Shown piece after piece: positions 21,038 through 32,210 of a stretch of DNA of 64,000 nt (the first letter of the stretch is position 1; each line of letters starts with the position of its first letter). The notes below the pieces were generated by a model. It made no database searches. It was not told the DNA's origin and worked only from the letters and a program-made list of their open reading frames with translations. The stretch lies in the sequence record PP993145.1; one strand, given 5' to 3'. A program made the translations under genes and the position numbers. The DNA is from Escherichia phage phiP4.

Positions 21038-21113
21038 TGGAGCGGCTAGAGGGAATCGAACCCTACTCAGCGAGGCTTGGAAGGCCTGCGACACAACCCG
21101 TGTGCTTAACCGC
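21038..21113 (-). tRNA. tRNA-Gly (anticodon TCC)
   Basis: Hand fold: acceptor GCGGTTA/TAGCCGC, anticodon loop CTTCCAA, CCA. Confidence 0.6.
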
Positions 21114-21817: not shown

Positions 21818-22186
21818 AATTGAAAACTCGCAGGGTTAGCGAAACCTTCCTCAATTAGCATGTTCTAGAATACTAATCAAGTTATCTCCTATTGCACGCA
21901 GCTCAAGACGAGTACGAATTTTCAATTGTGGCGGCTCTCAGAAACTCTTCTACTCTAGCTTTAGCAGCTTACTCCCGAACGCATGTCGGGGAAGTCTTAC
22001 CAAGAGCATCAAATAGCACCGTTACACTTTGAGCCATAGATGTATCAAGAAGCAGAAGGATTTGAACCTTCACGAGATAGACCAGTTATCTCAGCCGCTT
22101 TATGAGGTATGTTGCAGGGAGTGGATGTTCCCTATAAACCTTTTAGGCAGCCCCGTCTACCGATTCCGGCATACTTCAAGAATTTT

Positions 22187-22850: not shown

Positions 22851-22941
22851 TGGCGGAAGAGGAGAGATTTGAACTCTCAAGCCGTTTTACCAGTCAGCCA
22901 CTTTCCAAGCGGTTTTCGTCACCAATTCGATTTGCTCTTCC
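22851..22941 (-). tRNA. tRNA-Ser (anticodon GGA)
   Basis: Hand fold: class II, long variable arm, anticodon loop TTGGAAA, CCA. Confidence 0.6.
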
Positions 22942-23214: not shown

Positions 23215-23452
23215 AAATTCTTTAGTTTACTAAGGCTATTAGCTCGGCGTAACTACAGCACCTTCGCTTCGAGCGGAAGGAACTGCGTCATCTCGCAAAC
23301 CCAATACACTATTCAGTTGCCGCTGAATCTAGTGGACCAATCTAGAACTTCTCCCGAATCAGGGGGATCGTGCTTTTTGGCAGCCAGTCCTAGGTCGAGC
23401 TAATACCTTAGTGAACTATGATGAGGATTTCTCCTCATCAATTTATATAAAT

Positions 23453-23929: not shown

Positions 23930-24138
23930 TAATTTTTGTTAACTCACTTTATAAGATATATTATACAGAGAATTAAGCAGAATAGCAAATGAATTTTTAA
24001 TAAATTTACTTATTGTGTAGGCCACCTAGAGGCTATGAACCCCACGGCTGACAAAGAAGTTTGCGAGACTTCTCTTAAATGCCAGAATAGACCCGCCGAT
24101 CTATCGGAACCTACATAATAAGTAAACTTTATAGTGTC

Positions 24139-24258
24139 ATTCTAGACAGGACTCGAACCTGTTATCACTTGTGCGGACTTACGAGAACCATTCTTTCACT
24201 CGAATCGAACGAGCTTCTGCCCTCGCCAAGCTGGTTTCCCCATCAACCACGCTAGAAT
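24139..24258 (-). other. composite tRNA-like element (120 nt) with two T-arm hairpins and a D-arm-like hairpin
   Basis: Outer 7-bp acceptor-like pairing ATTCTAG/CTAGAAT spans 120 nt; no canonical anticodon arm found by hand. Confidence 0.3.
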
Positions 24259-24380
24259 GTTTGATTGTTTTCAGTGCAAGAGTCCGAGTCTTGGACACGA
24301 CCGCTTCGCAAGTACATAGGCAGCTTATCATGAGTCAGCACTTCCGAATTGCTAGCTCCGTGTTCTGCACTGAAATTTTA

Positions 24381-25052: not shown

Positions 25053-25125
25053 TGGTATCTGTGGCTGAATTCGATGTCAGCAATGATAGCTGGTTGGCTA
25101 CCGGTTTACTTAACTCTACACAGAA
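25053..25125 (-). other. non-canonical tRNA-like element (no U33 in candidate anticodon loop, 8-nt T-loop)
   Basis: 6-bp acceptor with encoded CCA; anticodon loop CAACCAG lacks U33. Confidence 0.3.
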
Positions 25126-27867: not shown

Positions 27868-27945
27868 TGGTGGCTCCCCGAGGATTCGAACCTACGTACC
27901 TTCCGGTTATGAGCCGGGTGCTCATACCATATGAGCTTGAGAACC
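27868..27945 (-). tRNA. tRNA with anticodon CAT (third CAT tRNA; Met or Ile2), imperfect T-stem
   Basis: Hand fold: acceptor GGTTCTC/GGGAGCC, D-arm GCTC/GAGC, anticodon loop CTCATAA, CCA. Confidence 0.5.
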
Positions 27946-32138: not shown

Positions 32139-32210
32139 TACCGACCGTAGGATTCGAACCTACATCTTCCACCAGTTACGGCTTGATAATACCAATTATA
32201 CTAGGACGGC
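32139..32210 (-). other. tRNA-like element with acceptor and perfect T-arm but no recognisable anticodon arm
   Basis: T-arm GTAGG-TTCGAAT-CCTAC; acceptor 6/7 paired; no CCA. Confidence 0.3.

What the first reader, a model, noticed from the sequence alone, without database searches (positions are those of the whole stretch)
24139..24258. 120-nt composite tRNA-like element with two T-arm hairpins
A 7-bp acceptor-like pairing encloses a D-arm-like hairpin and two T-arm-like hairpins, but no canonical anticodon arm. It could be a tRNA with an insertion, two fused or degenerate tRNAs (possibly the missing Val/Trp), or a non-tRNA stable RNA.
Basis: seen in the sequence. Interest (0 to 1): 0.65.

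Follow-up and report, generated by a model that had tools for sequence, protein, structure and literature searches.

The report
Phage T5 RNA2, a tRNA look-alike
This is the minus-strand gene for phage T5's "RNA2", a stable tRNA-shaped RNA of unknown function in which the anticodon loop is replaced by a conserved, knotted 55-base module with a second T-arm; the same design turns up in many unrelated large phages, so it very likely works as a tRNA mimic and not as a decoder.

Summary
The window is a T5-like phage. The element is 96.8% identical to the T5/BF23 gene annotated in GenBank as "RNA2: tRNA-like stable RNA with unknown functions". ARAGORN and Rfam 15 do not call it.

Comparing 36 homologues gives a covariation-supported fold: 92.7% of cells paired against 60.6% when shuffled. 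They come from T5-like, Klebsiella, Pectobacterium and Enterobacter phages, Acinetobacter T4-like phages, and 100-360 kb metagenomic phage contigs.

The fold has:
- a 7-bp acceptor stem, a D arm, a 5-bp anticodon stem and a T arm;
- in place of the 7-nt anticodon loop, a module made of helix GGGY/RUCC (invariant G·U), a 2-bp helix, a second canonical T-arm, a small hairpin with a UGG loop, and a 2-bp pseudoknot (CGUAA with GCA).

It is not two fused tRNAs and not the missing Val or Trp. An intron-bearing tRNA-Arg(CCG) is unlikely: position 37 would be a pyrimidine, the would-be anticodon is base-paired with covariation, and CGG is 0.8 per 1000 codons.

Best reading: a non-decoding tRNA mimic matured by the tRNA pathway. 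Its target is unknown. The gene is already known; the family-wide architecture is absent from Rfam 15 and from the papers I could search.

The parts
24135..24259 (-). Whole RNA2 gene as annotated in T5 (125 nt). The structured core is 24139-24258, followed by discriminator G and ACA at 24135-24138.
   Evidence: 96.8% identical over 125 nt to T5 rna2. cmsearch scores 157.6 bits with R1 and 128.1 bits with R2.
24252..24258 (-). Acceptor stem, 5' strand AUUCUAG
   Evidence: Pairs with 24139-24145. All 7 pairs show compensatory changes across 36 homologues (helix 1).
24139..24145 (-). Acceptor stem, 3' strand CUAGAAU
   Evidence: helix 1. In the Enterobacter and Klebsiella phage homologues it is followed by an encoded GCCA or UCCA.
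24232..24249 (-). D arm: 4-5 bp stem UGGU(U)/(A)ACCA with loop GAUGGGGA carrying the GG
   Evidence: 96.6% of cells paired; all 4 pairs have compensatory changes (helix 2).
24227..24231 (-). Anticodon-stem equivalent, 5' strand GCUUG
   Evidence: Pairs with 24167-24171. 95.5% of cells paired; all 5 pairs have compensatory changes (helix 3). First seen by eye.
24167..24171 (-). Anticodon-stem equivalent, 3' strand CAAGU
   Evidence: helix 3.
24172..24226 (-). Conserved 55-nt module that replaces the 7-nt anticodon loop
   Evidence: Present in all 36 homologues. Invariant single-stranded motifs: GG, CGUAA, UCC-GCA.
24219..24222 (-). Helix 4, 5' strand GGGC
   Evidence: Pairs with GUCC at 24175-24178. 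G-C 36/36 and G·U 36/36 are invariant. The Y-R pair is UA in 19 and CG in 8 sequences (helix 4).
24175..24178 (-). Helix 4, 3' strand GUCC
   Evidence: helix 4.
24216..24217 (-). Helix 8, 5' strand GA
   Evidence: Pairs with UC at 24183-24184. G-C occurs in 35/36 sequences. The second pair is AU 10, UA 9, GC 7, CG 2, UG 2 (helix 5).
24183..24184 (-). Helix 8, 3' strand UC (the C is the first base of CGUAA)
   Evidence: helix 5.
24198..24214 (-). Internal T-arm (T1): GCUCG-UUCGAUU-CGAGU
   Evidence: 94.3% of cells paired; 4 of 5 pairs have compensatory changes. The loop UUCGAUU is nearly invariant (helix 6).
24185..24193 (-). Mini-hairpin H7: GAA-UGG-UUC, whose GG is invariant
   Evidence: 80.6% of cells paired. 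The middle pair is AU 12, UA 10, CG 3, GC 3 (helix 7). This is the weakest helix.
24181..24182 (-). Pseudoknot, 5' strand GU of CGUAA
   Evidence: Pairs with GC at 24173-24174. G-C 29, A-U 4, G·U 3; U·G 27, U-A 8; 98.6% canonical (helix 8).
24173..24174 (-). Pseudoknot, 3' strand GC of the GCA that precedes the anticodon-stem 3' strand
   Evidence: helix 8.
24146..24162 (-). Canonical T arm (T2): ACAGG-UUCGAGU-CCUGU
   Evidence: 98.9% of cells paired; 4 of 5 pairs have compensatory changes (helix 9).

Best explanation
SHOWN. The stretch is the gene for phage T5 RNA2, transcribed from the minus strand inside the tRNA array. It belongs to a conserved family of phage tRNA-like RNAs.

SHOWN. The RNA has a complete tRNA body: 7-bp acceptor stem, D arm with GG, 5-bp anticodon stem, 4-nt variable loop and a T arm. 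The anticodon loop is replaced by a compact 55-nt module. In that module, helix GGGY/RUCC (invariant G·U) and a 2-bp helix stack towards a second canonical T-arm. A small hairpin offers an invariant GG. A 2-bp pseudoknot ties CGUAA to the GCA at the base.

INFERRED.
- It is cut out of the polycistronic tRNA precursor by RNase P at the 5' end. The 3' end is trimmed and CCA is added or kept, as for neighbouring phage tRNAs. It then accumulates as a stable L-shaped RNA of about 120-125 nt.
- It does not decode.
- It acts as a tRNA mimic. The module is a 12-layer helix capped by a T-loop/GG 'second elbow', resembling an acceptor/T-arm minihelix. It is the recognition surface for a tRNA-binding host or phage factor, which the RNA titrates or recruits. 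A tRNA-targeting defence enzyme or a tRNA-processing or modification enzyme are examples.

My confidence by step: identity and fold about 0.95; non-decoding about 0.85; decoy or recruiter mechanism about 0.3.
For: Identity.
- The window is a Tequintavirus.
- The element is 96.8% identical to T5 rna2 and syntenic with it: 115-aa CDS, then RNA2, RNAIV, promoter P13a, tRNA-Pro.
- GenBank notes read 'tRNA-like stable RNA with unknown functions'.

Fold.
- A covariance model from my structure finds 36 distinct homologues at 46-128 bits, against at most 39 bits for true tRNAs.
- 92.7% of cells are paired, against 60.6% when shuffled.
- 30 of 37 pairs carry compensatory changes.
- The covariation score is 0.763, against 0.175 for shuffles and at most 0.125 for slid registers.
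- The pseudoknot pair moves G-C to G·U to A-U in at least three lineages.

Processing as a tRNA.
- In most loci the element lies on the same strand as, and often 2-6 nt from, flanking tRNAs. Examples are L115, L108, L103, L106, L131 and L150.
- Some members encode GCCA or UCCA after the acceptor stem.

Non-decoding.
- There is no 7-nt loop.
- If the module is removed, the loop is N-U-CCG-C-A with a pyrimidine at position 37 in all members. Its G36 and C37 are the covarying pseudoknot partners.
- Discriminator and acceptor sequences vary freely.
- CGG makes up 7 of 8836 codons.

Phage-specific. Of 120 pattern matches in bacterial and archaeal species genomes, only one is a member. It lies on a 330-kb contig with scattered tRNAs.
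Against: - 'Stable RNA' rests on a GenBank note.
- The partner factor is unknown, and gene neighbourhoods gave no consistent protein partner.
- The single-sequence folding energy is not exceptional (z = -0.94).
- H7 is only 80.6% paired, and the pseudoknot is 2 bp long.
- The alignments used for counting were fitted to the model, which leans towards the structure.
- The Acinetobacter T4-like members have a degenerate D arm and poor acceptor pairing. The tRNA body may therefore not be essential everywhere.
- ARAGORN calls the module-deleted sequences tRNA-Arg(CCG) in 14 of 32 cases (18 of 32 as some tRNA), so a tRNA origin, or even a residual tRNA function, is not formally excluded.
Confidence: 0.7

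Rival explanations
1. An intron-containing tRNA gene. The roughly 48-60-nt module would be a removable insertion between positions 32/33 and 34. Its excision would leave a functional tRNA-Arg(CCG), or tRNA-Trp(CCA) in a few members.
For: - ARAGORN at -ps90 with intron search calls the window element tRNA-Arg(ccg) with a 48-nt intron.
- After in-silico removal of the module, 18 of 32 members are called tRNAs at default settings, mostly Arg-CCG.
- U33 is invariant.
- An invariant G·U sits at the would-be 3' junction.
- T5 RNA1 has an insertion at the same place.
Against: - Position 37 would be C or U in every member. It covaries with the R of CRUAA, so selection acts on the unspliced fold.
- A switch of anticodon from CCG to CCA tracks the pseudoknot, not any decoding need.
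- CGG is 0.8 per 1000 codons in this phage.
- The discriminator base varies over G, A, U and C.
- Rfam gave no group I or other ribozyme hit at E up to 10.
- There is no bulge-helix-bulge motif.
- The GenBank annotation gives the stable species as 125 nt.
- The ARAGORN calls follow from my choice of columns, which gives a 7-nt loop. They show only that the tRNA body is intact.
Confidence: 0.07
2. An evolutionary relic. It would be a degenerate or fused tRNA pseudogene, or the scar of a tRNA duplication or mobile-element insertion, with no function of its own and merely tolerated in the dispensable tRNA region.
For: - The window holds other degenerate tRNAs that are called only at lowered thresholds.
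- 'GAGGGYAG + T-arm' resembles a tRNA variable loop plus T arm, which suggests a tRNA-derived origin (inference from the sequence).
- HNH homing endonuclease genes are annotated within the T5 tRNA array.
Against: - The fold is kept with compensatory changes across T5-like, Sugarlandvirus, Hongcheonvirus, Acinetobacter T4-like and jumbo-phage contigs.
- Unpaired motifs are invariant in 36 of 36 sequences.
- Within Tequintavirus it is 97-100% conserved.
- A neutral relic would not do this.
Confidence: 0.04
3. A cis-acting processing element. The tRNA-like fold would serve only as an RNase P/RNase III 'punctuation mark' that releases or stabilises flanking transcripts: the upstream 115-aa CDS mRNA, RNAIV, or neighbouring tRNAs.
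For: - It lies in a co-transcribed block between a CDS and RNAIV. The nearest consensus promoter is downstream of it.
- tRNA-like punctuation is an established principle in mitochondria and in tRNA-mRNA co-transcripts (general knowledge).
Against: - Punctuation needs only the acceptor and T-arm. It does not explain the invariant, pseudoknotted 55-nt module.
- The flanking genes differ completely between phages.
Confidence: 0.08
4. Protein-coding sequence. Some database records annotate a 'hypothetical protein' over this stretch.
For: - ORFs of 72 aa (+ strand) and 50 aa (- strand) overlap it.
- 'Hypothetical protein' is annotated here in several phage records.
Against: - Substitutions preserve base pairs, not reading frames.
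- Indels of 1-7 nt fall in loops.
- The ORFs are not conserved in the distant homologues.
Confidence: 0.01

Closest known systems
Bacteriophage T5 / BF23 RNA2 (GenBank misc_RNA 'rna2' in AY543070, AY692264, AJ604530)
   Same: It is the same gene: 96.8% identity over 125 nt, the same neighbours (115-aa CDS upstream, RNAIV and promoter P13a downstream) and the same strand.
   Different: Only a few substitutions. Three of them are the state changes A-U to G·U at the first anticodon-stem pair, G-U to A-U at a T2 pair, and G·U to A-U in the acceptor stem. The records give no structure, family or function.
Canonical tRNA (Rfam RF00005)
   Same: Acceptor stem, D arm with GG, 5-bp anticodon stem, short variable loop and a T arm with a GTTCGAGTC loop. 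It sits in a tRNA array at tRNA-like spacing.
   Different: There is no 7-nt anticodon loop; a 55-nt module takes its place. Position 8 is C. Rfam scores it 18 bits against a cut-off of 29, and ARAGORN does not call it.
tmRNA tRNA-like domain
   Same: It is a tRNA mimic in which the anticodon arm is replaced by a long helix leading to pseudoknotted structure. tmRNA is matured by RNase P (established knowledge; reviewed in PMC3985003, listed).
   Different: No tag reading frame and no G3·U70 in the acceptor stem (pair 3-70 is UA, GC, AU or CG). A full D stem is present, and the RNA is only about 124 nt. ARAGORN tmRNA search and Rfam both find nothing.
Phage T4 species 1 and 2 RNAs (rnaC, rnaD)
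   Same: Small stable RNAs of unknown role encoded at the end of a phage tRNA cluster (PMC3014915; PMC9697503). rnaC ends in a T-arm-like hairpin.
   Different: Not homologous by my model. The 3' part of rnaC scores 22 bits, in the range of ordinary tRNAs, and rnaD gives no hit. T4 lacks the module.
Bacterial YrlA (Y RNA-like) tRNA mimics
   Same: A non-coding RNA with T-arm, D-arm and acceptor-like elements that mimics tRNA without decoding (PMC4201824, listed).
   Different: In YrlA the tRNA-like module hangs on a Ro-binding stem formed by the RNA ends (from memory of that paper; not re-read here). Here the RNA ends form the acceptor stem, and the novel module is at the anticodon position. 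No Rfam hit.
Other T5 'tRNA-like' RNAs (RNA1, RNA3, RNA2H)
   Same: Same array, same GenBank label. RNA1 also has a tRNA body with an insertion at the anticodon loop and shows compensatory changes between T5 and this window.
   Different: Their inserted sequences are different. R2 scores RNA1 and RNA3 at about 15 bits.

Membership tests
T5 RNA2 (orthologue) | Sequence identity to the annotated T5/BF23 rna2 gene over its full length | tested here: met
   96.8% over 125/125 nt to T5 and over 124 nt to BF23.
T5 RNA2 (orthologue) | Same genomic position and strand in the tRNA array | tested here: met
   The order CDS(115 aa)-RNA2-RNAIV-P13a-tRNA-Pro on the minus strand is the same as in AY692264 and AY543070.
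T5 RNA2 (orthologue) | Accumulates as a stable RNA of about 125 nt in infected cells | not testable with these tools
   Only the GenBank note 'tRNA-like stable RNA' is available. No RNA data were accessible.
Canonical tRNA | 7-bp acceptor stem, D arm and T arm with a GTTCRANYC loop | tested here: met
   (helices 1, 2, 9).
Canonical tRNA | 5-bp anticodon stem closing a 7-nt loop with U33 and purine 37 | tested here: not met
   The stem is present (helix 3), but the loop is a 55-nt structured module. Even after deleting the module, position 37 is a pyrimidine.
Canonical tRNA | Passes tRNA detectors at their thresholds | tested here: not met
   ARAGORN finds nothing. Rfam RF00005 scores 18 bits against a gathering score of 29, and finds nothing at gathering threshold.
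Intron-containing tRNA (group I or bulge-helix-bulge type) | Recognisable intron core: a group I catalytic core, or a BHB motif at the splice sites | tested here: not met
   No Intron_gpI or other ribozyme hit at E up to 10. At 48-60 nt the module is far shorter than group I introns. The loops flanking helix 4 are 4x3 and 1x4, not two 3-nt bulges on opposite strands (structure).
Intron-containing tRNA (group I or bulge-helix-bulge type) | The spliced product is a functional tRNA | tested here: inconclusive
   The body is intact: 18 of 32 are called tRNA after removal of the module. However, position 37 is a pyrimidine, the discriminator varies, and the CGG codon is almost unused. Splicing itself cannot be tested here.
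tmRNA | tRNA-Ala-like acceptor stem (G3·U70), tag ORF and pseudoknot ring | tested here: not met
   ARAGORN -m finds none. There is no Rfam tmRNA hit. The acceptor 3-70 pair is not G·U.
T4 rnaC / rnaD | Homology to T4 species 1 or species 2 RNA | tested here: not met
   R2 with filters off scores rnaC (L009 1407-1501) at 22.2 bits, no better than ordinary tRNAs. rnaD is not hit.
New phage 'RNA2-like' family (defined here) | tRNA body plus module with GGGY/RUCC (G·U), internal T-arm UUCGAUU, GG hairpin and the CGUAA-N-UCC-GCA pseudoknot | tested here: met
   The window copy is the top hit of both models (157.6 and 128.1 bits) and has every element.

The most novel reading that the evidence does not exclude
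RNA2-like RNAs would be a widespread, so far unclassified class of phage trans-acting tRNA decoys. The invariant, pseudoknotted T-loop module would be a dedicated binding pocket. It would sequester either a host tRNA-targeting defence or tRNA-processing protein, or a small signalling molecule. That would make it an RNA 'sponge' encoded in tRNA arrays as a counter-defence. One specific variant: helix 4 (G-C, G-C, G·U) stacked on the internal T-arm mimics a tRNA-Ala-type acceptor/T minihelix.
Probability: 0.2. Interest if true: 0.8.

Novelty: already known. Interest (0 to 1): 0.5.

Why it matters
The gene itself is not new. T5 and BF23 records have carried it for about twenty years as a 'tRNA-like stable RNA with unknown functions'. 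Like T4's RNAC and RNAD, it belongs to a long-standing unexplained class of phage small RNAs.

This analysis adds four things:
- a base-pair-level, covariation-supported architecture, including a pseudoknot;
- evidence that the same design is conserved far beyond T5, in Klebsiella, Pectobacterium and Enterobacter phages, Acinetobacter T4-like phages and jumbo-phage contigs, and is essentially absent from cellular genomes;
- evidence that it is not a decoder;
- a covariance model that separates members from tRNAs.

The family is absent from Rfam 15, and tRNA finders miss it or mis-call it. One record annotates its first 70 nt as tRNA-Arg.

Phage tRNA arrays are now thought to counter tRNA-cleaving immunity. 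A conserved, anticodon-less tRNA mimic in those arrays is therefore an obvious candidate for a decoy. The invariant G·U, the pseudoknot and the GG hairpin give precise mutations to test that idea.

Tried and rejected
1. Single-sequence MFE fold. It paired GCUUG with UAAGU and CGAGGGC with GUUCUCG. Comparison with the Klebsiella and Acinetobacter homologues rejected this, because there is no covariation. The CAAGU anticodon stem replaced it.
2. Two overlapping 70-nt tRNAs (acceptor + D + T1 + 'GAAAGAAU'). Rejected: there is no anticodon stem, the region is 5 nt short, and the 70-nt 'tRNA-Arg' annotated in phage KKP_3711 is the 5' part of the same fold.
3. Homology with T4 species 1 RNA, prompted by shared UCGAUUCGAG and CGUAAG strings. 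Not supported by the covariance model.
4. J2 pairing with the spacer as a 4-bp helix. This was refined to a 2-bp helix (H8) plus the H7 hairpin after the column-pair scan.
5. Gene-neighbourhood clustering of ORFs around 25 loci. It found only tRNA-biology genes in subsets of related phages: a YqeY/GatB-tail-like protein, PTH2 and an RNA ligase. No universal partner emerged. The upstream 115-aa protein has no known domain.
6. Literature searches. No paper in the held library describes RNA2. The one 'RNA2' text match was spurious.
7. Rfam at gathering and at E up to 10. There was only a sub-threshold local tRNA hit plus noise (rli51, tRNA-Sec, sR48).
8. Bacterial origin.

Full report
**What is there**

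The window carries a dense minus-strand tRNA array at about 19.5-32.2 kb. ARAGORN tRNAs and Rfam makes 22 tRNA hits. Neither tool calls anything at 24139-24258.

Read as the reverse complement, the stretch is AUUCUAGCGUGGUUGAUGGGGAAACCAGCUUGGCGAGGGCAGAAGCUCGUUCGAUUCGAGUGAAAGAAUGGUUCUCGUAAGUCCGCACAAGUGAUAACAGGUUCGAGUCCUGUCUAGAAU. It has these parts:
- a perfect 7-bp terminal stem;
- a D-arm-like hairpin with GGGG in its loop;
- two hairpins with canonical T-loops, UUCGAUU and UUCGAGU.

The T-loop motif GTTCRANTC occurs 25 times in the window against 3.95 expected. All 25 are on the minus strand inside the array.

**Identity**

BLAST against phage genomes shows that the window is a T5-like phage (Tequintavirus). 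In the T5 st0 record the orthologous stretch is annotated misc_RNA 'rna2'. It is followed by 'RNAIV' and promoter P13a, and preceded by a 348-nt CDS. That order matches the window exactly.

The 125-nt T5 gene maps to window 24259-24135 at 96.8% identity. The T5 and BF23 records by the original sequencing laboratory describe it as a 'tRNA-like stable RNA with unknown functions' and a 'tRNA-like RNA with unknown functions'.

The element is therefore a known, named gene whose structure and role are not given. I found no paper about it in the searchable library.

**Structure from comparison**

A BLAST search with the 125 nt alone found 482 phage records. They included diverged copies (75-80% identity) in these phages:
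- Pectobacterium phage DU_PP_V;
- Enterobacter phage KKP_3711;
- Klebsiella Sugarland-like phages;
- Acinetobacter T4-like phages, where only the central part matches.

Aligning these showed that the thermodynamic fold of the middle of the molecule is wrong. The segment after the D arm (GCUUG) pairs with CAAGU, which lies immediately 5' of the variable loop and T arm. This pairing changes in a compensatory way:
- ACUUG/CAAGU in T5;
- CCUG/CAGG in Sugarland;
- CCAU/GUGG in DU_PP_V;
- CCCAU/AUGGG, CCCUA/UAGGG, CUCCG/CGGAG and GCGCUG/CAGUGC in others.

The RNA therefore has a complete tRNA body. Only the 7-nt anticodon loop is missing, and a conserved module of about 55 nt replaces it.

**Covariance models and statistics**

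Pattern scans of IMG/VR added many more copies, including copies on contigs of 100-363 kb. I built a covariance model from five T5-like sequences with this structure (R1). It found members at 34-158 bits.

A second model built from 32 members (R2) separates the classes cleanly:

| Class | R2 score |
|---|---|
| Family members | at least 45.8 bits |
| Genuine tRNAs | at most 39 bits |

A scan of all column pairs revealed three further elements inside the module:
- a 2-bp helix, with an invariant G-C and a freely covarying N-N pair;
- a 3-bp hairpin closing an invariant UGG loop;
- a 2-bp pseudoknot between the GU of the invariant CGUAA and the GC of the invariant GCA. It moves G-C to G·U to A-U independently in at least three lineages.

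On the 36-sequence alignment the full structure has 37 pairs:

| Measure | Observed | Shuffled columns | Slid registers |
|---|---|---|---|
| Cells paired | 92.7% | 60.6% | 33-45% |
| Covariation score | 0.763 | 0.175 | at most 0.125 |

Thirty of the 37 pairs have changes on both sides. Helix 4 contains a G-C and a G·U pair that are invariant in 36 of 36 sequences.

Two caveats apply. The alignment was fitted to the model. H7 is the weakest helix, at 80.6% paired.

**Context and distribution**

In most loci the element lies on the same strand as flanking tRNAs, often only 2-6 nt away. Some members encode GCCA or UCCA right after the acceptor stem. Together with the 7+5-bp acceptor/T stack, this makes maturation by RNase P and the 3'-end tRNA machinery the natural inference. 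I did not test it.

In bacterial and archaeal species genomes, 120 matches to a loose pattern yielded a single member. It lies on a 330-kb contig with scattered tRNAs and is probably phage. The family is thus phage-specific.

Clustering neighbouring ORFs gave no universal protein partner. The recurrent neighbours were tRNA-biology genes limited to related phages: a YqeY/GatB-tail-like protein, PTH2 and an RNA ligase.

**Is it a tRNA after all?**

ARAGORN with intron search finds nothing at its default threshold. At a lowered threshold it proposes tRNA-Arg(CCG) with a 48-nt intron. If I delete the module in silico, 18 of 32 members are called tRNAs, mostly Arg-CCG and some Trp-CCA. This shows that the body is intact and hints at a tRNA origin.

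Five points argue against decoding:
- Position 37 would be C or U in every member.
- The would-be nucleotides 36 and 37 are the pseudoknot partners and covary with the module.
- The discriminator base varies.
- CGG accounts for only 7 of 8836 codons in the window's long ORFs.
- No ribozyme or group I core is detectable.

I give the intron reading about 7%. A relic pseudogene is contradicted by the conservation pattern. tmRNA and T4 rnaC/rnaD membership were tested and not met.

**Mechanism**

What is shown is a tRNA-shaped RNA whose anticodon end is a compact junction. Helix 4 and the 2-bp helix stack towards an internal T-arm, giving 4+2+5 bp with two single-nucleotide interruptions. That is about the length of an acceptor/T minihelix.

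The adjacent UGG hairpin is placed to supply the GG that normally docks into a T-loop. That would form a second 'elbow'. The pseudoknot would clamp the base. The docking and the clamping are inferences from the secondary structure and from established tRNA T-loop/D-loop chemistry.

I therefore propose that RNA2 is a non-decoding tRNA mimic that is processed and stabilised like a tRNA. Its module would bind a tRNA-recognising factor, titrating or recruiting it. Which factor is unknown. A role as a decoy against tRNA-targeting immunity fits the genomic setting but is speculation, at about 0.3.

The G-C/G-C/G·U sequence of helix 4 matches the first three pairs of a tRNA-Ala acceptor stem. I note this only as a lead.

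**Verdict**

The finding is real and correctly described. It is already known as T5 RNA2, but it is unexplained. The family-wide architecture and the covariance model obtained here are absent from Rfam 15 and from the papers I could search. They make the old question of what these phage tRNA-like RNAs do directly testable.

Noticed in passing
window 24014-24116 (minus), within 24002-24130: Orthologue of T5 'RNAIV' (96% identity). It is enclosed by a closing stem of about 20 bp around a three-way junction. The fold energy is -49.4 kcal/mol with z = -5.8. The only Rfam match is a sub-threshold rli51 hit. The long stem looks like an RNase III site; its function is unknown.
   Followed up: partly
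window 24269-24375 (minus): A stretch of about 107 nt between the 115-aa CDS and RNA2 is closed by a 10-bp stem, UUUCAGUGCA/UGCACUGAAA. It is almost invariant between this phage, T5 and oldekolle, but is not annotated in the T5 records. In Epseptimavirus-like relatives a tRNA 3' end sits there instead.
   Followed up: partly
window 22036-22180 (minus): Orthologue of T5 'RNA1' (85% identity). It has a class-II tRNA-like body (acceptor, D arm, long variable arm, T arm) with an insertion of about 40 nt at the anticodon loop, the same place as in RNA2. There are compensatory changes against T5 in the acceptor stem, the anticodon stem and the inserted hairpin. The anticodon-like UAA of T5 is not conserved here.
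   Followed up: partly
window 21819-21924, 21929-22035, 23234-23405, 25053-25125 (minus): Orthologues of the other T5/BF23 small RNAs of unknown function are all present: RNAIII, RNAI, RNA2H and RNA3. None is in Rfam at gathering threshold.
   Followed up: no
L003 601-670 (Enterobacter phage KKP_3711, PP579741.1 1549-1618): The record annotates a 70-nt 'tRNA-Arg(ccg)'. It is actually the 5' part of the RNA2 homologue at L003 600-726 (103 bits with R1). This is a mis-annotation caused by the internal T-arm.
   Followed up: yes
window 21038-21113, 22851-22941, 27871-27945, 32139-32210 (minus): These are tRNA-like genes that one or both detectors miss. A tRNA-Gly(UCC)-like and a tRNA-Ser(GGA)-like sequence are found only at lowered ARAGORN thresholds. 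A CAU-anticodon tRNA and an odd 72-nt tRNA-like sequence are found by Rfam but not by default ARAGORN. No tRNA-Val was seen.
   Followed up: partly
L012 3068-3508 and L105 10551-11000: A YqeY-like protein (PF09424, PHROG 'tRNA amidotransferase') is encoded 200-470 nt upstream of the RNA2-like gene in two related metagenomic phages. The same protein cluster also has members in L125 and L130. From memory, YqeY resembles the tRNA-binding tail domain of GatB. It is a possible partner, but it was not found in the T5-like loci examined.
   Followed up: partly
L096 8798-8913; L012 8968-9097 and 9119-9232; L107 6645-6785: Other tRNA-like elements of 114-141 nt have intact acceptor and T arms and expanded anticodon or variable regions. 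They are unrelated in sequence to the RNA2 module. tRNA bodies carrying foreign modules may be common in phage tRNA arrays.
   Followed up: no
L103 8612-8733 and L108 2994-3114: In these two metagenomic phage contigs (363 kb and 101 kb) the terminal stem can extend to 10-11 bp, through pairing of the leader with the trailer beyond the 7-bp acceptor stem.
   Followed up: no
L007 561-675, L008 577-692, L016 7637-7745 (Acinetobacter T4-like phages): These members keep the module, the anticodon stem and the T arm. They lack a D stem (only UGG-AGGAA remains) and have poorly paired termini. The module may be the functional core, with the tRNA body partly dispensable.
   Followed up: no
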